DNA of 64,000 nucleotides, taken from NCBI GenBank assembly GCA_030141605.1, contig JAQGDQ010000084.1, positions 496,001 through 560,000 on the forward strand, written 5' to 3'. The notes beneath the pieces were generated by a model, which was not told where the DNA came from, did no database searches, and was given only the letters and a program-made list of their open reading frames with translations. The position numbers and the translations under genes were made by a program. Numbering within the stretch: the stretch's first letter is position 1; every line of letters starts with the position of its first letter. The DNA is from Tubiluchus corallicola (taxonomy: Eukaryota; Animalia; Priapulida). This document shows, one piece after another, positions 10,051 through 63,667 of the stretch.

Positions 10051-10121
10051 GCTGTCACGCGAAGAAAATTCAAAACCTGTGATTTTCGTGAATCGTTAGA
10101 GGATGGAGTACACCTTTTACA
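10051..10121 (+). CDS. LMO7: LMO7/LIMCH1-family gene, internal exon A (CH domain start): AVTRRKFKTCDFRESLEDGVHLL(Q)
   Basis: ttttgtag acceptor, gtaagt donor, 71 nt (phase 0 to 2); resembles vertebrate LMO7 AVTEKNFETKDFRASLENGVLLC. Confidence 0.9.
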
Positions 10122-11730: not shown

Positions 11731-11788
11731 GTTGTTAAATTGCATTCAAGATGATGTCATAGACATTAAAGATGATTCCACACCTGAG
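11731..11788 (+). CDS. LMO7: LMO7-family exon B: (Q)LLNCIQDDVIDIKDDSTPE
   Basis: ctaatttcag acceptor, gtaatt donor, 58 nt (phase 2 to 0); aligns to LMO7 DLINKLKPGVIKKINRLSTP. Confidence 0.82.
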
Positions 11789-19039: not shown

Positions 19040-20050
19040 TAATTAGAACAACCGCAAGACCATGAATGTAGAGAGAAGTTAGAGCAACGGCAAGACTGTG
19101 AATATAGAGCGGAATTAGGACAATTGCAAGACCATGAATGTAGAGAGAAGTTTGAGCAACGGCAAGACTGTGAATGTAGAGCGGAATTAGGACAATTGCA
19201 AGGCCATGAATGTAGAGAGAAGTTAGAGCAACGGCAAGACTGTGAATGTGGAGCGGAATTAGGACAATTGCAAGATCAAGAATGTAAAGAGGAGTTAGAA
19301 TAACCGCAAGACCGTGAATGTAGAGAGGAGTTAGAATAACCGCAAGACCGCGAATGTAGAGAGGAGTTAGAATAACCACAAGACTGTGAATGTAGAGAGG
19401 AGTTAGAATAACCGCAAGACCGTGAATGTAGAGAGCAGTTAGAATAACTGCTCGACCGTGAATGTAGAGAGGAGTTAGAATAACTGCAAGACCACGAATG
19501 TAGAGAGGAGTTAGAATAACTGCAAGAGCATGAATGTAGAGAGGAGTTAGAATAACTGCAAGACCATGAATGTAGAGAGGAGTTAGAACAACCGCGAGAC
19601 CATGAGTGTAGAGAGCAGTTAGACCATGCGCAAGAGCATGAATGTAGCGAGGAATTAGAACAACTGCAAGACCATGAATGTAGAGAGGAGTTAGAACAAC
19701 TGCAAGACCACGAATGTAGAGAGGAGTTAGAATAACTGCAAGACCATGAATGTAGAGAGGAGTTAGAATAACTGCAAGACCATGAATGTAGAGAGGAGTT
19801 AGAACAACCGCGAGACCGTGAATGTAGAGAGGAGTTAGAACAACCGCAAGACCGTGAATGTAGAGAGGAGTTAGACCATCCGCAAGAGCATGAATGTAGC
19901 GAGGAATTAGACCATCCGTAAGAGTATGAATGTAGCGAGGAATTAGAACAACCGCAAGACCATGAATGTAGAGAGGAATTAGAACAACTGCAAGACTGTG
20001 AATATAGGGAGGGAGTTCCTACATTCATGGTCTTGTGGTTGCCCTAATTT
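19040..20050 (+). repeat. 36-bp minisatellite, about 27 units, capped by one inverted unit
   Basis: GAATGTAGAGAGGAGTTAGAAYAACYGCAAGACCRT; 20017-20049 is a reverse-complement unit. Confidence 0.95.
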
Positions 20051-23106: not shown

Positions 23107-23481
23107 GTAGTTTCGTTGTGCGCATGCGCAGTTGCTGTAGGTCAAAGGTTAAGTGTACTACAGCATCGTGTCTTAACTGTAACCGTCTCATGATGTGTGG
23201 GCAGAGCAAAGCAGTTTGCTGCATCAGTTCAGCAACTTCAGTTGTTTTACATGGATTTTACTTAACTATGCATCATTTTGCATGTAGAGTGACTTACTAG
23301 CAGGATCTTGCTTGAGAACAAGAAAAAATGAACTAGGTAATGTTCTAGCTATTTGTTAAAACCGTTACTATTACAATAGCATGGGCTGCGAGGCCTTGTC
23401 AAGTGTACAGAAATGCGTTGTCAGGTACACTTAACCTCTGACCTTTTCACGATCATCATCAATCGCTGGAAAAGGCTCATT
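23107..23481 (+). mobile_element. MITE family E copy
   Basis: similarity to 1758-2153. Confidence 0.8.
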
Positions 23482-34790: not shown

Positions 34791-34900
34791 GAAAATATCT
34801 GTCTGTTCCTGGAGACGTGTCACACTTACTTTGGATTAGCGTCCCACTTACTGTTCACACCTGATGACCTTGAAGAGCTCTTTGTAGAAGATTTTAACAG
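34791..34900 (+). CDS. LMO7: LMO7-family exon C: ENICLFLETCHTYFGLASHLLFTPDDLEELFVEDFN(S); GC donor
   Basis: TACTAAC branch at 34752, long T tract + tag acceptor; CH motif NI..FL..C...GL....LF.P.DL; AG|gcacgt end gives the phase 2 needed by the next exon. Confidence 0.88.
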
Positions 34901-34906
34901 GCACGT

Positions 34907-50834: not shown

Positions 50835-50877
50835 TGAACAAGATTGGCAGGAGGAATGCGACGAGAGACTTAGAAAT
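50835..50877 (+). CDS. LMO7: LMO7-family exon D: (S)EQDWQEECDERLRN
   Basis: tttacag acceptor, gtaagt donor, 43 nt (phase 2 to 0); aligns to LMO7 QEETDRRVKN. Confidence 0.85.
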
Positions 50878-50887
50878 GTAAGTAATG

Positions 50888-51010
50888 TCTTTCTACAGGG
50901 TGTACCTCATTTTCTACAGGGTGTAACTCGTTTTCTGCAGAGTGTCCCTCATTTTCTGCATGGTGTCCCTCATTTTCTACAGGGTGTCCCTCCTTTTCTA
51001 CGTGATGTCC
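50888..51010 (+). repeat. 21-bp minisatellite (TTTTCTRCAGGGTGTCCCTCA), about 6 units, just after the exon D donor
   Basis: direct inspection. Confidence 0.9.
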
Positions 51011-51019
51011 TATAATAAT

Positions 51020-51544
51020 TTTCGGTAATTAAATAATAGCTTACAAATTTAATTAAAGAACGGCGAGCCCAACCGTTGATGACATCACAGCTGAACATAA
51101 TTTCGGTGTTGAAACATTACATGGTTTCAACAGCACAAACTTCGGGTGAGCGTGTTTACGAAAGCAAAAATTGAAGTACTGCGCAAGTGTAAGATATTCA
51201 GTGTGTTGTACTAAAACTAGGTAAGTTTTAAGATGAAAATTCAAATTTCAAATTTACCACTGTGCTCACGCGTGAGCTGTCGAACATACACATACAAACT
51301 AACACATCTGAACTGAGTGGTACAGTACCTGTGTTTCCGAGATTCAGCTCTGGTGCCCGTCTGACTGGCGAATGGTGAAATGCATGTAAGAGTGAAGAAC
51401 TAGTGGCACGAACACGAAATTACCATTCTGTAGTAATAATTCTTTCAAATACGTTATTCTTGAAAAAAAGGTGTTTCCTTTCAATATTTTACATATTAGA
51501 TTGTTTTGAGCTTTAGCCTAAGATTGGGTCCGGTTTTCGTTTAA
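51020..51544 (-). mobile_element. MITE family A, 3'-truncated
   Basis: reverse-complement similarity. Confidence 0.83.
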
Positions 51545-51784
51545 CTGAGATTAGACTGATACTGCGCGTTTATTGATCTGTAAAAACAGAGTGAATTGTT
51601 GTGCGTAAATACCTGTACGGATTAAACAGGTATGGTGCAATTAAAATCAGTCGACGGTATACAGGTGTAAATAAAAGTTCGTTGGCGTTTTTACCTTGCC
51701 GGGAGTGGATTTCTTCCTTGTAATTTTCTTATCAGAACTGACAAAGTCGCGACACCGTCCGGTCTGTGATGTTGGCCTTTTTAC

Positions 51785-52105
51785 GTGTCCGTACATTTGC
51801 TTAGTGTAAGTGGTTATGCTCTCTCTGTTTTACAGAGAAAATGTTGTCCAACTTTGCCCTTTTTAGGTGTCCGTACATTAGCTCAGTGTAAGTCGTTATG
51901 CTCTCTCTGTTTTACAGAGAAAATGTTGTCCAACTTTGCCCTTTTTAGGTGTCCGTACATTAGCTCAGTGTAAGTCGTTATGCTCTCTCTGTTTTACAGA
52001 GAAAATGTTGTCCAACTTTGCCCTTTTTAGGTGTCCGTACATTAGCTCAGTGTAAGTCGTTATGCTCTCTATGTTTACAGAGAAAATGTTGTCCAACTGT
52101 GCCCT
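51785..52105 (+). repeat. 82-bp tandem repeat, about 4 units, each containing GTAAGT...TTTACAG
   Basis: unit starts 51785, 51867, 51949, 52031. Confidence 0.92.
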
Positions 52106-52448
52106 ATCTCATTATATAGTAATCTGTCTAAAAGCGGAAATTAAAATTTGGCATTTACTAATTTAATTTTGATTACCTTTTTTCCGGCGATAAATTGACA
52201 GTCATTAAACTTTATTTTTTGTTTCTGCTATAGATTCGTGGAATGTACTTCCTCTTTGAATTCGTAATAGCCTGTTCTTATCGCCATTTAAATTACGTCA
52301 AAGAAAACACTTGGGTTTCAGCAAACGCCCCAAGTATTATTCTTATAGTGATCGTAGATTAGCTGTCTCCGTGTCACAAGCACACATTTGTATGAAGAAA
52401 TTAATTCAGCGCATTACTCTTTGTGTTGTAATAATTTACCCACATGTT

Positions 52449-53605
52449 AGATTTATTACAATTTTATTACTATCAACCAGTGGAATAAAGTTTCAGATTT
52501 ATTACAATTTTATTACAATCAACCAGTGGAATAAAGTTTCAGATTTATTACCGTTTTATTACAATCAACCAGTGGAATAAAGTTTCAAATTTATTACATT
52601 TTTATTACAATCAACCAGTGGAATAAAGTTTCAGTTTTATTACATTTTTATTACAATCAACCAGTGTGATAACGTTTCAGATTTAATACATTTTTATTAC
52701 AATCAACCAGTGTGATAAAGTTTCAGATTTATTACATTTTTATTACAGTCAACCAGTGGAATAAAGTTACAGATTTATTACAATTTCATTACAATCAACC
52801 AGTGGAGTAAAGTTTCAGATTTATTGCATTTTTATTGCAATCAACCAGTAGAATAAAATTTCAGATTTATTACATTTTTATTGCAATCAACCAGTGGAAT
52901 GAAGTTTCAGATTTATTACATTTTTATTACAATCAACCAGTGGGATAAAGTTACAGATTTATTACAATTTCATTACAATCAACCAGTGGAGTAAAGTTTC
53001 AGATTTATTGCATTTTTATTGCAATCAACCAGTGGAATAAAGTTTCAGTTTTATGACATTTTTATTACAATCAACCAGTGTGATAAAGTTTCAGATTTAA
53101 TACATTTTAATTACAAACAACCAGTGTGATAAAGTTTCAGATTTATTACATTTTTATTACAATCAACCAGTGGAATAAAGTTACAGATTTATTACAATTT
53201 CATTACAATCAACCAGTGGGGTAAAGTTTCAGATTTATTGCATTTTTATTGCAATCAACCAGTGGAATAAAGTTTCAGATTTATTACATTTTTATTGCAA
53301 TCAACCAGTGGAATGAAGTTTCAGATTTATTACATTTTTATTACAATCAACCAGTGGAATAAAGTTTCAGATTTATTACAATTTCATTACAATCAACCAG
53401 TGGAATAAAGTTTCAGATTTATTACATTTTTATTGCAATCAACCAGTGTAATGAAGTTTCAGATTTATTACATTTTTATTACAATCAACCGGTGGGACAA
53501 AGTTTAAGATTTTTTACAATTTTATTACCATCAACCAATGGAATAAAGTTTCAGATTTATTACGATTTTATTACAATCCACCAGTGGAATTAAGTTTCAC
53601 ATTTT
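52449..53605 (+). repeat. 46-bp minisatellite, about 25 units
   Basis: AGATTTATTACATTTTTATTACAATCAACCAGTGGAATAAAGTTTC repeated. Confidence 0.95.
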
Positions 53606-53969
53606 TATTATTCTAAAGTCAAGTGCAAACAGCCTGTGGCAATATGGCGTCTGAAGTTCACACGCTATTATATGTCACTTAGTTCAAGTTATTTGTTAAA
53701 ACTGCCTTAGAGATTTTCGTTAAAAGATTTCCCGATGTGCAATAAACTCATAGGTCTATGTGTGAGTTTGGTGTCACGTAGATCTAGTTACTTGCCTTGG
53801 TAGTATTTGTAATATAATCTATTCTAATCTAATGTAGTCTAATCTATTAGTACGTGTCTCAGCATTCGTAATATAAGCGACTGTTTAATAAGCGATAACA
53901 ATTTTACTCTTTTTGCTGTGCAGTATAATCTAATTTGATTATTGTACGGCTTAGTTCACTCCATTTCGC

Positions 53970-54800
53970 TCGTCCAGTCCAGTCCATTCACTTCATTCCA
54001 ATTCACTTCAGTCCAGTCTAGTTCATTCCACTCCGTCACTCCATTCCTCCAGTCCAGTTGAGTCCAGTCCAGTTTGCTCAATCACTGCAGTCTCTTAGTC
54101 CAATCCAGTTGACTTCTGTCCAGTCCAGTCCAGTTTGCTCACTCACTGCAGTCTCTTAGTCCAGTCCAGTTCACTTCTGTCCAGTCCAGTCCAATCCAGT
54201 GTATTCCTGTCCAGTCCAGTCCAGTTCAGTCCACTCCGTCACTCCATTCCTCCAGTCCAGTTTGCTCAGTCACTGCAGTCTCTTAGTCCAGTCCGGTTGA
54301 CTTCTGTCCAGTCCAGTCCAGTTTACTCCTGTCCAGTCCAGTTCAGTCCACTCCATCACTCCATTCCTCCAGTCTAGTTGAGTCCAGTCCAGTTTGCTCA
54401 TTCACTGCAGTCTCTTAGTCCAGTCCAGTTTACTTCTGTCCAGTCCAGTCCAGTTCAGTCCAGTTTACTTCTGTCCAGTCCAGGTCAGTCTACTTCGTCA
54501 CTCCATTCCTCCAGTCTAGTTGAGTCCAGTCCAGTTTGCTCAATCACTGCAGTTTCTTAGTCCAGTCCTGTTCACTTCTGTCCAGTCCAGTCCATTTCAC
54601 TTCTGTCCAGTCCATTCCAGTTTTCTTCTGTCCAGTCCAGTCCAGTCCAGTCCAGTTTACTTCTGTCCAGTCCAGTCCAGTTTACTTCTGTCCAGTCCAG
54701 TCCAGTTCACTTCTGTCCAGTTCACTTCTGTCCAGTTCACTTCTGTCCAGTCCAGTCCAGTCCACTCCGTCTCTTCATTCCTCCAGTCCACTCCAGTTCA
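53970..54800 (+). repeat. degenerate (CCAGT)n pentamer-based satellite
   Basis: direct inspection. Confidence 0.93.
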
Positions 54801-55389
54801 TCATCTTAACGGGTAAAGGATTACACACAATAAATTCCTCTGTTGCTCGTAACACTTTCTGTACCACTCACGTTGAAATACAGCAAAAAGTTATGCTCTT
54901 TAAAACTCATAAATTATCCGCTGAGAATGTTGTAACTCTGAGCAGGAATGCCTATAAAATTGCAGTTTTGGACTGGAGTAGCTCATTAAACAGCTTTTAA
55001 ACTGCTGAATGTGTTTGTTCACAACAAAATTAAAATACCGCCTTTCCATGCATAAACAGTCACAGTTGCATAGAGTTAATTGTCGTGTTGCGGAAATAAG
55101 TTTTGAATTTTGAAAACCAGAGTAAGGCTTGATCGAATTGCGATCTGTGATAATTTATGCAATAACTGAAATTAAATGACAAGGATTACGTAAATCAAAA
55201 ATTACAATAAATGAAATGAAATGTTTTTCATATTTATCAAATTTTGCTCGAATCAGAAACGCAAAGTCTACCTTCTGATGATTGACATTGTTAACTCTTT
55301 ACCAAATAACAATGGCCATATGAATAACCTGATGTGGTGTCCTCAACTTGGGCCATCCCAGATCCTTGGATGGCTGATTCTTGCTCATT

Positions 55390-56001
55390 TTAAAAGAAAA
55401 CTGAACCCAATCTTAAATTGTAGGTCAAAACAACCTACTCTTTAAAATATTGAAAGGAAACATAACTATTTTTCAAGAATGACCTGCGTGAATGAATTAT
55501 TACCACACAAACACAATTTCACTTTTGCGCCATTAGTTCTTCGCTGTTACATGCATTTCGCCATTCGCTAGTTAGACTGCTACTAGCGCCTGCATTTTGG
55601 AAACGCATTGTACAAGAACAGGTGCTGTTCCTCTCAGTTCACATGTGTTAGTTTGTGACGTACTGCACACGTTCGACAGTTCATGCATGAGCAATACGAA
55701 TTTTTATCTTAAAACTTGCCTGGTTTTAGTACAACACACTGAATATCTTACAGGAGTACTGCACTTTAATTTTCGCTTTCTCAAATGCGTGCAACACGCT
55801 TGTGGGATATTTTTGCTCTTGAAAATTATGTTAGTTTGTGATGTCATCAATAGTTGGGTAAACCCTTTATTTCATTAAATTTTTTAATCTATTATTTGAT
55901 TATCAGAAATGCTTTTGCAATATTAATTGTGTTCAAATGTATACTTTTTATCGGACTTGAAAATTGGGTAGTATATGAAAGATCATCCTGTCTTCCTTTA
56001 A
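55390..56001 (+). mobile_element. MITE family A
   Basis: full-length similarity, TTAA at both ends. Confidence 0.88.
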
Positions 56002-56745
56002 GCAATTCTGTATAGAGCCATTGCTAAAACCTTGATTTCGTTTTATCGCTACAAATTTGTGAATTCTACTCCTTTAAAAAACATTTGGATTCCTCTTAAA
56101 TCTTTATCAACTGTCATATTAAAATGTAATTTAAAATTGTAATTATGTAAGTAAGTACAGTTTCTGTACTTAGTAATGTTAGTGAAATGTAACTATTAGT
56201 TACAATTCAAGCTACTCTTATTCTAATTTAGTTAGTTTTAGTAATCTACATTAAGATGTCTGTACAATTTTTTATTAACATCATTTGTTTTCAAACACAC
56301 CTGTACAGTTAAGTTACATAAGTGGTTCCGTTAAAAAGAATTAGTAGACTGGTAGCAAAGTAAAAATAAGTATTAAACAGTGACAACAACAACAGCAACA
56401 ACAACATCAACAGCAACAACAACAACAACAGCAGCAACAGCCACCACCACCACAACAACAGCAGCAACAACAACAAGAACAGCAACGACAAAAAGACACA
56501 GATTCTGACTGTTAAACTTTTGAGGTTTGAAGCGAATAAGTATCTACTAGGTGCTCTGAAACTTTGTAACAATTTCACTCTTCACCCACTTCACTTTTAA
56601 CCTTTACAAAGAAAAAACTTTTATGGATGAAAACCGAAAATACGTTTAACCATAAACTCATTTCGCTAATAAAACTGTATTAAATTGCCTTTTAATGAGA
56701 AAAATGTGTTACTCTGTTAGAGATATTGGATGATTAGATACTGCA

Positions 56746-57309
56746 TACTGTTGTGGATGAATAAATCCATGAATCCACTTCAATGAATCCATTTTTTATT
56801 ACTTTTTTTTATCAAACTTCCAGGTTACTGTGACAATCTATTGGCTAGGAGTTGCTTGCAGACAAATAGAATCATTTGAACGTAGACCAAAGCTAGACTT
56901 CAGTGCCTTTACTAGTTTATTCAAGTATAAGCCTACTGCTGTGGATGAATGAATCCATGAATCCACTTCAATGAATCCGTTTCTTATTACTTTTTTTTAT
57001 CAAACTTCCAGGTTACTGTAACAATCTATTGGCTGGGTGTTGCTTGCAGACAAATAGAATCATTTGAACGTAGAGCAAAACTAGACCTCACTGCCTTTAC
57101 TAGTTTACTCAAATATAAACCTACTGCTGTGGATGAATGATTCCATGAATCCACTTCAATGAATCCGTTTCTTATTACTTTTTTTTATCAAACTTCCAGG
57201 TTACTGTAACAATCTATTGGCTGGGTGTTGCTTGCAGACAAATAGAATCATTTGAACGTAGACCAAAGCTAGACCTCAGCGCCTTTACTAGTTTACTCAA
57301 ATATAAACC
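56746..57309 (+). repeat. 188-bp tandem triplication of intron end + acceptor + 5' 110 nt of exon E (exon starts at 56824, 57012, 57200)
   Basis: three near-identical units at exact 188-bp spacing; read-through of copies 1 and 2 hits TGA at 56950 and 57138. Confidence 0.95.
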
Positions 57310-57387
57310 TTGTGCCAGAAACAGCGGAGTTTCTTCCAGTGAACATCATATTGAAAGGAGAACTCACAGCCCTTCTCACCACAACAG
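57200..57387 (+). CDS. LMO7: LMO7-family exon E (complete third copy): VTVTIYWLGVACRQIESFERRPKLDLSAFTSLLKYKPCARNSGVSSSEHHIERRTHSPSHHN(S)
   Basis: cttccag acceptor, AG|gtatac donor (phase 0 to 2); aligns to LMO7 VLITLYWLGRKAQ...PHLNLKAFENLL. Confidence 0.88.
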
Positions 57388-57612
57388 GTATACAAATGTA
57401 TATAGTACTTGTTAGAGATATTTCTGTATTTTTAATTTGGTCATAAAATTCTCTTGGCTTCTTGCATTTCTGAGTTTTAAAAGAGAAACAGAGGAAATCT
57501 TTCACCTCGTATAGTCGTAAATTCGTTCTGTCTCTAGCGCACCACACAGTTTGGAACGCAAATTGGTAAATTCTTGTTAAGTAGTTTCTTATTGTCCACA
57601 GCATTAAACGTT

Positions 57613-58010
57613 AATAAGCCTTTTTACAGTTTCAGCGATTGATGATGATAGTGACACTGTCAAAGGTGAAAGGTTCAGTGTACTGGACAATGCATTTGTG
57701 TACACTTGACAACGTCTTGGCAGCCCATGCTATTGTGATAGTAACAGTTTTAACAGCTAACTAAAACCTTACCTAGTTCATTTTTCTTTTTCTTTTTCTC
57801 AAGCAAGATCCTGCTAGTAAATCACTCTACCCACAGACTAATGTATAATTAAGTAAAGTCCACACAAAAGAACTGACGTTACTGAACTGATGTGGGAGAC
57901 GGCTTTGCTTCACCCACATGTCACGTGACAGTTGTAGTTAAGACATGTATACTTAACCTTTGACCAACAGCAAGTGCGCATGCCCACAATGAAATGGTGA
58001 AAAGGCTTAT
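57613..58010 (-). mobile_element. MITE family E copy
   Basis: AATAAGCC...GGCTTATT; reverse complement of 1758-2153. Confidence 0.8.
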
Positions 58011-58094
58011 TACAGAAAACTTATTGTTGGATACAGAACTTCGTTAGATTTTAGTGATGTTTGTTATAAAGTTTGGAGTCTTATAACAGGACAG

Positions 58095-58612
58095 TTTACC
58101 TGGGTTCTGAAGTCTATTACTGTGAGGTGACAGACATCCAGACAAGGTGGTCTGGGTTCTGAAGTCCATTGCTGTGACCTTGCAGACATCCAGACAAGGT
58201 TCTTTGGGTTCTGAAAACTATTATTGTGACCTCGCAGAAATCCAGACAAGGTGGTCTGGGTTCTGAAGTCCATTGCTATGAGCTCACAGACATCCAGACA
58301 AGATGGTCTGGGTTCTGAAGTCCATTGCTATGACCTCGCAGACATCCAGACAGGGTGGTCTGGGTTCTGAAGTCCATTGCTATGAGCTCACAGACATCCA
58401 GACAAGGTGGTCTGGGTTCTGACGTCCGCCACTGTGAGCTCACAGACATCCAGACAGGGTGGTCTGGGTTCTGAAGTCCATTGCTATGACCTCGCAGACA
58501 TCCAGACAGGGTGGTCTGGGTTCTGAAGTCCATTGCTATGAGCTCACAGACACCCAGACAAGGTGATCTGGGTTCTGACGTCCGCTACTGTGAGCTCACA
58601 GACATCCTGACA
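58095..58612 (+). repeat. 52-bp minisatellite, about 10 units, with internal CCAGAC/GTCTGG inverted pair
   Basis: direct inspection. Confidence 0.93.
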
Positions 58613-58984
58613 AAGAAACATTGAGAAAAACTTTTTGCTCTCCTTACTAATTAAAATTCCGTTGTACACTTAGAGCCAGTAAGCAAATGTGCAATTCTCC
58701 TACAGGTGTTACAGGTCTCAGTGGAGGAGTCAGGGGAGGTCAAGATTAACTTGTAAACTTACAAGGGGAATTTCACATGATTCTTACCCTATGCAGATTA
58801 TGTTATTTGCCTGAGCCTAATAAAATTGATGTAAATGTTGGCCTGTAGAAATCAGAAATTTCTTAATAAACAATTGTTTTTTTAACGAACAAATATTGTT
58901 TTTTCACTTACTACATTTGTCATGAACATGGAACCTCTTGATAGATCTGGATCAGCATTATTAAAAGCACAGATTTCATAATAC

Positions 58985-59172
58985 TAGTAGTAGTAGTGGT
59001 AGTGGTAGTGGTAGTGGTAGTAATAATAATAATAGTGAATAATGATAATAATAAATAATAATAATAAGAGTAATAATAATAATAATAATAGTAAATAATG
59101 ATAAGAATAATAAATAATGATAATTATAATAATAAATAATGATAATAATAATAATAATAATAATATAATCAT
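58985..59172 (+). repeat. compound (TAG/TGG)n-(TAA)n microsatellite
   Basis: direct inspection. Confidence 0.93.
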
Positions 59173-59250
59173 GATTTTAAATTTAATAATTAGATTTTGT
59201 CATCTATAAGTGCGAAAAGTTGAGACGATTAACTGGCATTTCTATTGTAG

Positions 59251-59362
59251 TGTTCTCAGGGATAGTTCCTATGAGTCAGCTTCCGATAAGCAGGAAGACG
59301 ACATTGGAATAAGGATCATGCCAGGAAAATACAATCGAACACTAGAACTCGAGGCTGGTGAA
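59251..59362 (+). CDS. LMO7: LMO7-family exon F: (S)VLRDSSYESASDKQEDDIGIRIMPGKYNRTLELEAGE
   Basis: ctattgtag acceptor (alternative in-frame ttctcag 9 nt downstream, exon start 59260), gtaagt donor, phase 2 to 0; RDSSY resembles LMO7 RDSGY. Confidence 0.78.
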
Positions 59363-60453
59363 GTAAGTATATACTAGTATGGCTTGCATATATATATATT
59401 TGTGTGTGTGTGTGCGTGCGTAAAAAAGCATTTCCTTTCCTAAACAATCGTTTCCTAAATATTGCCACATTGCAGTTAAACCATCACAAATTATTTAAAT
59501 TTTTGAAGCTACTGCAGTTTATAAGATTTTAGTTGTACTGTGGATGCGCCCAATCCAAGCAAAGAAACAGGAAAAATTAGCATTGAACTGTTCAATAGAC
59601 CTGCAATTTATTAAAATAACAGATCACAAAAGTGCCTAAAGACGTGCAAACGTTTAATTACTATTTAGACAAAGATGAAAAATTAGATTTATGAAGACTC
59701 AAACACAAATTATTACTTTAATATTCTAGAGACTTCAAGCAATTTCTGACGATTTTAAATTATTAACTAATTATTATATTAAAGTAGATATCGACTTATA
59801 CTTACTGGTGAGTACTTTTGCTTGACAATATGACTAAATGATTACTAAATTACAACAAAAATTAAGAAATTAATTCATGTTTCACTCAACCGCATGATTA
59901 GCATGGTGAGAACAGAAAATATGACACCGTTGAGAAAGAATAGGCACGATTGATAGGTGGCTATGCTAGTCAACTAAACAAAGCTTAGGTTACGTGACAT
60001 ACTGGCTTCATTTTAAAGCACCTGGATCAAAGTCTGCAAGTTCAAAAACGCAAAATAGTTTTACAATGCGGAATCTAAATCCCATGATAGTGATGTGCAT
60101 GATTATGTAATTTTTCAGGTTCATTAGCTTTAGGTTAATGTATTATATACAGAAAATTTTCGTAGTGCATGTCTATGACACATCCCATTAATTGATTTAC
60201 ATTGAACAGCTTGGGAAGCCAAATTATCTTAAAAACTGTTTGGTTTAGAATGATCTGCACCAGCTGTTGCTGTATGATATTATTCAGTTGTGATGTTCCT
60301 TGTGTCTCTTACAGTCACATAAACCAGCACTTACAGTGAGCAGTGTTATAATACAGGTTGCAGGAAATTTCTGTTTTGTTCAAATTGTAGTGAATCTGAT
60401 GCTATGAAATTTTAAAGCTGTTGTGCCTTCTTGTCGTCCTTTTACTCTGCCAC

Positions 60454-61243
60454 TAGGAGCAGGGATGTATCAAGATTTTACGACGCCCTAGGCTGATAGT
60501 TCTGTCCAGCCTATCTCTATTGTGACTTTGTGGTTGATTATGTAATGAGCTTACCAGATAATTACTTGTGGTTTATTAGAAACACTATTAACCTAGTTTC
60601 TACGTGGTCATTATTAGTTACATGTATTTGCTTAACGCTTATATTCGAGTAGGCTGCTCAACTGCTTGTTGAGTAATACCTTGCACCTGTTTGTTATGTG
60701 GCTTTTAAAAACTATTCTCAGTAACTACCTGTGGTGTGTTATAGAATGTGCCCTTTACATGGATATGAAAGTAAAGACATTTTCTGAGGAGAATAAGATT
60801 TTTTTCTAAAATTTGGTGCCCTAGGTTACTGCCTGGTTAGCCTATTGGTTAATACATCACAGACTAGGGGCGAGCAATTCTCAATGCGAATCGAATTGAT
60901 ATGAATTTTTCACTTTCAAATTCGAATCTAACTGAGTTTGAAGATTTCAAATGCCAGTTGAATTAGAGTTTAGTTCTAAAGATTTTCGAACAAATTTTTG
61001 AATCATCAACGAAAAGCAGTTTTGCAAAGGTAATGCGTATTGCTTGTCTTTTCCTGCAGTAAAACAGTAATAAGTATTACAAAAATTGTGCATATTACTT
61101 GCTGTAGAAAAGTATGTTACTGATAAACAACGTATGTATAGTTGAAGCTGTGAATTGTTTGAATCCATAATCTCAGATTTGATGCGAGTTCAAATAAACA
61201 AAATTGGTTCAAATCGAATTCCTACGTGTGATGTTCATCCTTA
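60454..61243 (+). mobile_element. hAT-type TAGGG MITE carrying a second hAT MITE (60460-60862) in its left terminus
   Basis: inner TSD ACTAGGAG/ACTAGGGG, outer TSD TCTGCCAC/TCTGTAAC. Confidence 0.75.
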
Positions 61244-61324
61244 TCTGTAACCTCTGTGTGTAACATAATTATGAAATTCTTTTATGTAATTGTCAGATGA
61301 ATTGTAATTATAGTTTGTACAACT

Positions 61325-61795
61325 AACTGAAATTGTACTGTACCATTGTTTTTAAAACTGAATTTGTACCAACTTTTTTTAAAGACTGCAATTATACCAT
61401 TGTTTTTAAAGACTGATATTTTACTGTTGTTTTTAAAGACTGATATTTTACTGTTGTTTTTAAAGACTGAAATTATGCCATTGTTTTAAAGACTGATATT
61501 TTACCATTGTTTTTAAAATCTGAAATTGTACCATTATTTTTAAAGACTGATATCTTACCATTGTATTTAAAGACTGAAATTATACCATTGTTTTTAAAGA
61601 CTGAAATTATGCCATTGTTTTTAAATACCGATATTTTACCATTGTTTTTAAAGACTGGTATTTTACCATCGTTTTTAAAGACTGAAATTATACCATTGTT
61701 TTTAAAGACTCAAATTATACCATTGTTTTTAAAGACTGATATTTTACCATTGTTTTTAAAAACTGAAATTATACCATTGCTTTTAAAGACTGATA
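61325..61795 (+). repeat. 27-bp minisatellite (ACTGAWATTWTACCATTGTTTTTAAAG)n, about 17 units, ending in the exon G acceptor
   Basis: direct inspection; open frame (FLKTDILPL)n continuous with exon G. Confidence 0.95.
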
Positions 61796-61961
61796 CACAA
61801 GGAAGTCTTCCATCTCCTGGTGTTATCCATTCACCGGCTAGCAGCCAATGTGAGAGTGTAGGAGCAGCGGTCAACAATAGCTATAGCAACCATTCCCGGA
61901 CCATGTCAAATGTATCAAATGAAAGTGGCTCATCTGGCATTCCGTCGGCACCTTCCAGCAG
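61789..61961 (+). CDS. LMO7: LMO7-family exon G: TDTQGSLPSPGVIHSPASSQCESVGAAVNNSYSNHSRTMSNVSNESGSSGIPSAPSS(S)
   Basis: ttttaaag acceptor at the end of the 27-bp array, AG|gtggct donor, phase 0 to 2 bridging exons F and H; the 5' boundary is ambiguous. Confidence 0.72.
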
Positions 61962-62271
61962 GTGGCTCTGATTTCCTACATTGTTGTGTCAGGCTGTTGT
62001 TTAAAATGCCCGTTACTGTGACATTTTCTTGTTGTTGATAACACAGTACTTCCAAAATTGCCAATTTTAGTGCTGTAGTTATATTTTACAATTTTATGTA
62101 AAATTACTGAGAATTTGTTCTCAAACTATGTTTCCTGTGTAACTGTCATTGGATGTTTTAAATATTTAATTTTCTCACTAACATTCTGAGTGTTTCTGTA
62201 TTTTAATATCCCTGAGTTATTCATTGAGAGTATAATTTCGGATAATAAGTAATATCGTTTATTTTTCGCAG

Positions 62272-62461
62272 TAATAAGGAAGTAGAAATACCGACTCGTA
62301 ACCTGCGTAGAGCGTCAGCGCCAACCAGTCTTGTTAATCCACTGCGGTTTGTAAAAACCCCAGAGTCTAATTTAAAGCAGAAAGCCATTGAGCAGATAAA
62401 GCTGGTTGAACAAGTAAAGAAGAATAAAGAAGTTAAAGTCGAGGAAACTGATTGGCAGTCG
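62272..62461 (+). CDS. LMO7: LMO7-family exon H: (S)NKEVEIPTRNLRRASAPTSLVNPLRFVKTPESNLKQKAIEQIKLVEQVKKNKEVKVEETDWQS
   Basis: ttttcgcag acceptor, gtaagt donor, 190 nt (phase 2 to 0); P..FVK...KA..QI...E.DWQS motif recalled from invertebrate LMO7/Smallish proteins. Confidence 0.88.
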
Positions 62462-62502
62462 GTAAGTTTGGCTTCCTTGTGTGTCAAGTTATGTTAAGTA
62501 AC

Positions 62503-62925
62503 CAGTGGCGGCTTGTAGTTAAATTTAGTGGGGGCGCTGCTTCAGAAAATTTTTAGCCATTGTTTTTATATTGTGTAAAACGAAACAAACATATATATAA
62601 ACTTACACTTACACAACAGGATCAGCACTGTGTGAGCGACAGTGCTTTTTCTATTTAGCATGCAGCTTCTTATCTTGGGCATGCACACAACAGCCAAACA
62701 CCGTGTCGCTGGAACTGTGATGCGCACAGTTCCCTAAAAGAATTTTTGTAATTTTTTTCTTCAACTGGGGAAAGGCTACTGACATTAAGCTCAAGGATTA
62801 TAAAATGTACAAGTATAAAGAAAGAATTAAAGAAAAAAGACTCATTATATTGAATATTATCGATGATATCAAGTGAAATTAGGGGGTGCTGCAGTGCTGC
62901 TGTGTCTATACACAACCCGCCACTA
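62503..62925 (+). mobile_element. hAT-type MITE
   Basis: CAGTGGCGG / CCGCCACTA TIR and perfect 8-bp TSD TAAGTAAC. Confidence 0.9.
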
Positions 62926-63117: not shown

Positions 63118-63667
63118 GGAAAGAGTTTATAATTCCCCACTCAAAAATACCCTAACCCTAATCCTAATCCTAATCCAAACCTGACACTAACCCCAATCCA
63201 ATCCCTAACCCCAACCCTACCCCTAATCCCAACCCTAATCTTCATCGAACCCTATCCCTAACCCCAACCCTATCCCTAATTCCAACCCTAATCCTATTCC
63301 AACACTAACCCTATCCCTAACCCCAACCCTATCCCTAATCCCAACCCTAACCCCAACCCTATCCCTAATCCTAATCCAACCCTAACCCCAACCTTATGCC
63401 TAATCCCAACCCTAACTGCAACCTTATCCCTAATTCCAACCCTATCCCTAATCCCAACCCTAACTCCAACCCTATCCCTAATCCCAACCCTATCCCAAAT
63501 TCCCTAATCCCAACCCTATCCCTAATCCCAACCATGACCCTAACTCCAACCCTAACCCCAACCCCAAAACCACCCAACACTAACCCTATCCCTAACAATA
63601 ATCCCAAACCTAATCCTAATCCTCCTAACAAACTGATCTCTTGTATGGGGAATTGTAAGCTTTAGCC
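63118..63667 (+). mobile_element. TIR-bounded element filled with degenerate telomere-like (CCCTAA/CCCCAA/CCCTAT)n
   Basis: TTATAATTCCCCA ... TGGGGAATTGTAA inverted pair flanks the array (63150-63630). Confidence 0.7.

What the first reader, a model, noticed from the sequence alone, without database searches (positions are those of the whole stretch)
50878..61795. Recurring theme: tandem arrays seeded on the gene's own splice sites
Seen: within 11 kb of one gene, four unrelated arrays (21, 82, 188 and 27 bp units) consist of sense-strand splice signals, and three of them sit at coding exon boundaries (D donor, E acceptor, G acceptor). Established: tandem duplication across a splice site can create alternative acceptors, new exons or introns. 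Inference: this lineage may generate splice-site VNTRs whose copy number tunes isoform length or output, or it has unusually robust selection of the distal acceptor among many decoys. T-rich AG-containing repeats can arise by chance in AT-rich introns, so enrichment needs testing.
Basis: partly seen in the sequence, partly recalled or inferred. Interest (0 to 1): 0.8.

Follow-up and report, generated by a model that had tools for sequence, protein, structure and literature searches.

The report
Two exon-edge repeats in LMO7-like gene
In an invertebrate LMO7-like gene, one of the four flagged repeats copies an RNA-confirmed intron end plus exon start three times and a second likely does so about 17 times; this is a known kind of repeat (lancelet "mirages") that is likely spliced out harmlessly, and the other two repeats touch no exon edge.

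Summary
All four arrays exist, but they are 4 of 10 arrays in this stretch and 4 of 32 in a window that is 15% tandem repeat. The host is an eight-exon piece of an LMO7/LIMCH1-like gene. Two arrays lie on a junction. The 188-bp unit triplicates the exon E acceptor plus about 110 exon bases; spliced contigs confirm that acceptor. The 27-bp unit holds the likely exon G acceptor. The 21-bp array starts 12 bases after the D donor without containing it, and the 82-bp array is deep intronic. Junction overlap is not clearly enriched (P 0.46, or 0.056 under a seed-only null), nor are 3n units (9 of 26, P 0.52). Upstream E acceptors lead to a stop; nine G acceptors are in frame but show no protein-level selection. 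These match amphioxus "mirages" and chicken "exon stuttering" (PMC3087553, PMC12954441). This scan has reported the same kind in other genomes (seven notes). Which copy is spliced in the array-bearing allele was not tested, so functional tuning is unsupported but not excluded.

The parts
10051..10121 (+). Exon A (calponin-homology domain, phase 0 to 2)
   Evidence: motif scan; borders; open 8-exon frame
11731..11788 (+). Exon B (58 nt), weakest-supported exon of the model
   Evidence: candidate scan (weak similarity score, chosen for its GTAATT donor and phase); borders
34791..34900 (+). Exon C (CH domain), predicted GC donor
   Evidence: tblastn; borders
50835..50877 (+). Exon D (43 nt); its donor is joined to exon E in a spliced contig
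   Evidence: loose end equals the last 30 nt of D
50890..51001 (+). 21-bp minisatellite, 5.3 copies, intronic, 12 nt after the D donor; acceptor-like unit, not derived from a junction
51772..52105 (+). 82-bp minisatellite, 4.1 copies, deep intronic; unit has GTAAGT and a pyrimidine tract with AG only 30 nt apart; possible pseudo-exons are frameshifting (52 nt) or carry a stop (21 nt)
56746..57310 (+). 188-bp triplication across the exon E acceptor (about 78 nt intron plus about 110 nt exon); exon starts at 56824, 57012 and 57200; copies 1 and 2 reach a stop at codon 43
56824..56924 (+). Copy-1 exon piece ending at a weak phase-2 GT (score 2.3 against 6.0-9.6 for modelled donors): candidate short alternative exon, untested
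57200..57387 (+). Exon E (188 nt, phase 0 to 2), intact only in the last copy
   Evidence: spliced contigs with D before and F behind; tblastn
59251..59362 (+). Exon F (112 nt, phase 2 to 0); start set by the spliced contig
   Evidence: loose end compared with the window
61341..61793 (+). 27-bp minisatellite, 16.8 copies, unit about 20 nt intron end plus 7 nt likely exon start; 13 AGs, of which 9 are in frame and open into exon G (9 residues per unit)
61789..61961 (+). Exon G (173 nt if the last acceptor is used; start inferred, no RNA)
62272..62461 (+). Exon H, matching LMO7-family proteins up to the start of DUF4757

Best explanation
The 188-bp array is a tandem triplication across an RNA-confirmed splice acceptor and the 27-bp array is likely the same kind ("mirages"), likely by-products of a genome rich in local tandem duplication and likely tolerated because the last copy keeps a whole exon and would be the one spliced. 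Shown: unit anatomy, the intact last copy, the stop behind upstream E acceptors, and the exon D-E-F junctions. Inferred: duplication by slippage or unequal crossover; choice of the last E acceptor by exon definition (188 nt against 376 or 564 nt); removal of any mis-spliced E transcripts by nonsense-mediated decay. At exon G, upstream acceptors would add 9 residues per unit without a stop, so some low-level use is possible but likely unselected. The 21-bp and 82-bp arrays are likely ordinary intronic minisatellites whose splice-like words are chance.
For: The window is 14.9% tandem array (32 arrays) and the D-H stretch 36.7%, so a few junction hits are expected (P 0.46 and 0.056). Only copy 3 continues into the exon tail and donor; exons from copies 1 and 2 stop at codon 43. 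Spliced contigs of run X2 go D-E-F and pass the repeat end at 57310 without a break; no loose end of the copy-junction type was listed. Copy 2 has 2 amino-acid-changing and 1 silent private change, as a decoy would. In the 11 in-frame 27-bp units 4 of 15 distinct variants are silent, against 21-29% expected without selection, and the lack of stops is unremarkable (P 0.38). Precedents: amphioxus BflGb6 has the same anatomy with 150-160 bp units, 3 or 6 copies and normal splicing (PMC3087553, section 16); human CBS 844ins68 favours the distal site (PMC2630376, passages); F7 VNTR pseudo-sites stay silent (PMC1557585, abstract).
Against: X2 differs from the window at 19 of 215 aligned exon bases, so it may lack the arrays and does not test choice among copies. 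No RNA supports the exon G start. The last G acceptor scores at the low end of the nine (4.8, range 4.5-8.5) in a crude matrix trained on only 8 sites. Copy 1 differs from copy 3 mostly at silent sites (6 of 8). The seed-only null is borderline (P 0.056), so real enrichment of junction-spanning arrays is not excluded.
Confidence: 0.75

Rival explanations
1. Functional splice-site VNTR: the number of 27-bp units sets a graded series of exon G isoforms with extra 9-residue hydrophobic units in the linker between the CH domain and DUF4757, and the extra E acceptors lower output through nonsense-mediated decay.
For: Nine acceptors are in frame and open. Several upstream ones score above the last. 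5 of 15 units carry a branch-point-like word. The three E acceptors score identically (9.0). Repeat-length effects on splicing are known in human (PMC10078293, passages; PMC5954066, search listing).
Against: No protein-level selection on the units (4 of 15 variants silent); one 26-nt unit breaks the frame and 3 of the 15 units listed lack the AG in front. 3n units are not enriched. Published mirages do not disturb splicing (PMC3087553, PMC3902484).
Confidence: 0.1
2. Copy 1 of the 188-bp array is a young mutually exclusive exon: 56824-56924 spliced to exon F through its own GT would keep the frame and shorten the linker by 29 residues.
For: Its phase (0 to 2) matches exon E. 6 of 8 differences from copy 3 are silent, and there is no indel or stop. 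Its L-to-F change at the LD(F/L) position is the state in 5 of the 9 homologues readable at that site.
Against: The donor scores 2.3 against 6.0-9.6. The same GT is present in the working exon of X2 and is read through there, so it is an old codon state, not a new donor. The silent excess is not significant against a decoy-plus-working-copy model (P 0.075-0.15) and could be allelic divergence.
Confidence: 0.07
3. A mutational bias makes tandem duplications start at exon edges more often than chance across this genome, without any function. This is compatible with the best explanation.
For: Seed-only null expects 0.39 and 2 are seen (P 0.056); with a 15-base margin P 0.028. 2 of 8 modelled acceptors are hit; chicken dot chromosomes show exon copies in 3.4% of introns (PMC12954441, passages), measured by a different method.
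Against: One gene, 16 junctions, chosen after the fact. The whole-array null gives P 0.46. None of the 6 junctions of exons A-C has an array within 800 bases. No whole genome was held to test it.
Confidence: 0.3
4. The 188-bp triplication is an assembly error that joined different haplotypes.
For: The window alone cannot exclude it, and alleles look divergent here (one X1 contig has 8 differences in an intron).
Against: There are three distinct versions with the same precise junction twice, and copy-1 letters at 57280 and 57301 match the independent run X2, so they are real sequence.
Confidence: 0.05

Closest known systems
Amphioxus 'mirage' minisatellites (Adh3, globins BflGb6 and BflGb9, troponin C, PGBD5); PMC3087553 section 16 read, PMC3902484 one passage read
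   Same: Tandem units made of an intron end plus exon start; BflGb6 units are 150-160 bp in 3 or 6 copies and Adh3 units 10-72 bp, close to the 188-bp and 27-bp units here; the working exon stays intact.
   Different: Different gene and probably a different phylum. Normal splicing and length variation were shown there; here they are inferred or untested. The 27-bp units are in frame with the exon.
Chicken dot-chromosome 'exon stuttering'; PMC12954441, passages read
   Same: Local repeat expansion in repeat-rich introns sometimes carries part of the neighbouring exon with its splice site; most clusters are purely intronic, like the 21-bp and 82-bp arrays.
   Different: There it was screened genome-wide (236 introns) and is highly variable in the population; here there is one gene and no genotype data.
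Human CBS c.844_845ins68; PMC2630376, passages read
   Same: Duplication of an intron/exon junction in which the distal site is strongly favoured and the mRNA is normal.
   Different: One extra 68-bp copy; here two extra copies, each with about 110 exon bases.
Human F7 IVS7 37-bp VNTR; PMC1557585, abstract read
   Same: A minisatellite whose end unit spans a splice junction; the identical pseudo-sites stay silent.
   Different: Donor side rather than acceptor side; tested with minigenes.
LMO7 / LIMCH1 / smallish family (host gene)
   Same: The 315-residue eight-exon model matches named mollusc and brachiopod LMO7/LIMCH1-like proteins (best E 3e-24; names).
   Different: Only the CH-to-DUF4757 part lies in the window; no close relative was found (best identity 60% on exon H).

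Membership tests
Mirage (188-bp array) | Head-to-tail repeat whose unit holds an intron end and the adjoining exon start of the host gene | tested here: met
   acceptor confirmed by spliced contig
Mirage (188-bp array) | Working exon intact in the terminal copy only | tested here: met
   copies 1 and 2 stop at codon 43; copy 3 reaches the donor
Mirage (188-bp array) | Normal mRNA made despite the extra sites | tested here: inconclusive
   D-E-F contigs come from a run about 9% diverged that may lack the array
Mirage (188-bp array) | Copy number varies between haplotypes | tested here: inconclusive
   one low-depth DNA run gave a single contig over copy 3
Mirage (27-bp array) | Unit spans the host exon's acceptor | tested here: inconclusive
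   9 of the 10 open in-frame acceptors lie in the array and no intervening exon passed the score cut-offs; which one is used has no RNA support
Mirage (21-bp array) | Unit contains the host junction | tested here: not met
   starts 12 nt after the D donor; no similarity to it, P 0.64
Mirage (82-bp array) | Unit contains the host junction | tested here: not met
   about 900 nt from the nearest exon; best P 0.032 of 16 junction tests
Splicing-regulating VNTR (ABCA7 type, spl-TRs) | Repeat length correlates with isoform use across individuals | not testable with these tools
   needs paired genotypes and RNA; only two runs were listed
Tandem mutually exclusive exons | Each copy has its own usable acceptor and donor and is seen in transcripts | tested here: inconclusive
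   copy 1 has a weak in-phase GT, copy 2 lacks it; no transcript uses it
Intron gain by duplication of an AG|GT proto-splice site (PMC2891723) | Duplicated AG|GT lies inside an exon, so a new intron appears | tested here: not met
   the AG|GT here is the existing acceptor of exon E, and the exon count is unchanged
LMO7/LIMCH1 family (host) | CH domain followed by DUF4757, PDZ and LIM | tested here: inconclusive
   CH-to-DUF4757-start region matches named members; PDZ and LIM would lie beyond the window; single exons gave no Pfam hit

The most novel reading that the evidence does not exclude
In this lineage exon-edge duplications are a working source of new isoforms: the in-frame 27-bp acceptor array gives a graded, copy-number-dependent series of LMO7 linker lengths, and copy 1 of the 188-bp array is a mutually exclusive exon caught at birth.
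Probability: 0.1. Interest if true: 0.6.

Novelty: new member of a known kind. Interest (0 to 1): 0.2.

Why it matters
As it stands it adds one more gene, in another invertebrate, to a described class of tolerated exon-edge repeats. Its value is as a natural test: three identical acceptors at exon E and nine in-frame acceptors at exon G allow a direct look at how the spliceosome picks among equal sites with and without a nonsense-decay penalty. If upstream sites were used in a regulated way, it would show mirages producing isoforms, which the papers read here propose but do not show.

Tried and rejected
Whole-genome enrichment: no genome is held for this window, so all tests are window-only. 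Sequencing runs: no RNA holder was listed for 59200-62500. X1 contigs cross exon-intron borders, so it is likely DNA. X2 gave no contig on exons G or H at 88% likeness; this is no evidence on expression. Copy number: X1 gave one contig identical to the window over 57144-57540 that is unbroken across stretches shared with copy 2, and no copy-1 or copy-2 type contig was laid. That would fit a haplotype without the extra copies, but low depth, filtering and graph simplification can give the same picture, so it is not used as evidence. Relatives: exon H against longer proteins gave none; exon E in metagenome contigs none of 373 candidates; exon H 1 of 599 with a weak match (L001, not followed up; that scan covered 7 of 64 parts). 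Pfam on four single stretches gave nothing significant. My first start for exon F (59260) was corrected to 59251; the whole-array null was rerun with the same result. Sense-strand signal enrichment: 5 of 26 arrays had an acceptor at p<=0.1 on the sense strand and 2 of 26 on the antisense strand; donors 3 and 1 of 26. The one strong hit (21-bp unit against the D donor, score 32) arises because that test region included the array itself. Recursive splicing at the E AG|GT was considered; the site lacks the GTAAGT consensus (recalled) and could not be tested. Literature: no paper on such repeats in priapulids came up (0 papers); the library lacks most subscription papers. No supplementary files were read.
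Full report
Observation. Tandem Repeats Finder lists all four arrays at the stated unit lengths: 21 bp at 50890-51001, 82 bp at 51772-52105, 188 bp at 56746-57310 and 27 bp at 61341-61793. Its 58 rows merge into 32 arrays covering 9,567 bases, 14.9% of the window. None of the six larger arrays tested has a copy elsewhere in the window, so they are likely of local origin.

Host gene. Exon H found 21 relatives, two of them named LMO7 or LIM-domain proteins with DUF4757 and LIM. A CH-domain relative (P0027) located the upstream exons. The eight-exon model is open for 315 codons and matches named mollusc and brachiopod LMO7/LIMCH1-like proteins at E down to 3e-24 (names). Exon B is the weakest piece. 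Earlier notes on this genome call the animal a likely priapulid; I did not test that.

RNA. Run X2 is only guessed to be RNA, but its two contigs are spliced. One carries the last 30 bases of exon D directly before 57200; the other runs from exon E into exon F at 59251. This fixes the D donor, E acceptor, E donor and F acceptor, and shows no exon from the 21-bp or 82-bp arrays in that transcript. X2 differs from the window at 6 of 77 and 13 of 138 bases, so it may be a relative without the arrays. It gave no contig on exons G or H.

The 188-bp array. Each unit is about 78 intron bases plus about 110 bases of exon E, with exon starts at 56824, 57012 and 57200. The three acceptors score the same (9.0). 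Only copy 3 continues into the exon tail and donor; splicing to copy 1 or 2 would give a 564- or 376-base exon with a stop at codon 43. Copy 2 has two amino-acid-changing and one silent private change. Copy 1 differs from copy 3 at 8 exon sites, 6 of them silent, and at 5 of 78 intron sites. On the branch separating copy 1 from copies 2 and 3, 5 of 7 changes are silent; a model with one decoy and one working lineage gives P 0.075-0.15. Copy 1 has a GT at 56925 in the right phase to join exon F, but it scores 2.3 against 6.0-9.6 for modelled donors, and X2 has the same letter in its working exon and reads through it.

The 27-bp array. It has 13 AGs. Exon F ends in phase 0, and 9 of the 10 open in-frame acceptors before the exon G donor lie in this array; the tenth scores -10.2, and no intervening exon passed my cut-offs. 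So the exon G acceptor is likely one of the array's. The last one (61789) is the simplest choice but scores low (4.8, range 4.5-8.5), and the matrix rests on 8 sites only. Each upstream unit would add 9 mostly hydrophobic residues. Among the 11 in-frame units 4 of 15 distinct variants are silent, as expected without selection (21-29%), and the absence of stops has P 0.38. One 26-base unit puts the first four AGs out of frame.

The 21-bp and 82-bp arrays. The 21-bp array begins 12 bases after the D donor and its unit resembles neither that donor nor the D acceptor (P 0.64 and 0.41). Its AGs would give introns of 21-105 bases followed by a stop within 38 codons. The 82-bp array is about 900 bases into the intron; its GTAAGT and next AG are 30 bases apart, and its possible exons shift the frame or contain a stop. 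AGs scoring at least as well as the weakest modelled acceptor occur 3.3 times per kb in non-repeat sense sequence and 2.2 per kb on the other strand, so such words in an 82-base unit are not surprising.

Enrichment. Two of 32 arrays span one of 16 junctions. Random placement of whole arrays expects 1.5 (P 0.46). Collapsing each array to one seed unit, which I think is the fairer null, expects 0.39 (P 0.056); a 15-base margin that lets in the 21-bp array gives P 0.028. These are uncorrected for a locus picked by eye. Units of 3n are 9 of 26 (P 0.52). No genome was available for the real test.

Mechanism. Inferred: local tandem duplication is frequent here; a unit that crosses an acceptor leaves the last copy as a whole exon; exon definition favours the acceptor nearest the donor, and nonsense-mediated decay would remove transcripts from upstream E sites (both recalled from general knowledge). 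At exon G no such penalty exists, which makes it the more open case.

Known systems. Amphioxus mirages have this anatomy, vary in copy number and leave splicing normal (PMC3087553, section 16 read; PMC3902484, one passage). Chicken exon stuttering is the same process screened genome-wide (PMC12954441, passages). [quoted passage not shown] F7 VNTR pseudo-sites stay silent (PMC1557585, abstract). Repeat-length effects on splicing are catalogued in human (PMC10078293, passages). Intron gain by proto-splice-site duplication (PMC2891723, passages) does not apply. I recalled the word 'mirage' before one search confirmed it. The original Adh3 paper was seen only as a citation.

Verdict. Partly confirmed observation: one certain and one likely mirage plus two ordinary intronic minisatellites. 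New member of a known kind, also noted by this scan in other genomes. Interest 0.2; the isoform-tuning reading has probability about 0.1 and would deserve 0.6.

Noticed in passing
window 34898-34906: Exon C ends at a predicted GC donor opening an intron of about 16 kb; the frame into exon D fits, but the junction was not seen directly.
   Followed up: partly
window 59249-59259: Two in-frame acceptors 9 bases apart at exon F; the X2 contig uses the upstream one.
   Followed up: partly
window 62504-62924: Element with 13-base inverted ends and very high contig depth in X1 (up to about 15,800 against about 6 nearby): likely a high-copy MITE-like repeat just after exon H.
   Followed up: partly
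window 57612-58011, 1758-2153, 23111-23471: A dispersed repeat of about 400 bases, three copies at about 79% identity, two on the opposite strand.
   Followed up: partly
window 19043-20017: 36-bp array of 27 copies with long stop-free frames on both strands (349 codons on the minus strand); intronic in the model.
   Followed up: no
window 63149-63623: Degenerate array of a 6-base unit resembling the TTAGGG telomere repeat (resemblance recalled), inside an intron.
   Followed up: no
window 52449-53604, 53972-54768, 58100-58613: Three further large arrays (46-bp, 5-bp-based and 52-bp units) in the same introns, with no notable splice-like score.
   Followed up: partly
window 61492-61788: The 27-bp units tend to alternate between two types, and three units lack the AG, leaving AG-free gaps of about 54 bases before 61546, 61654 and 61789.
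   Followed up: no
window 62125-62425: An X1 contig has 8 differences, all in the intron part (62155-62239) and none in exon H: a divergent allele.
   Followed up: no
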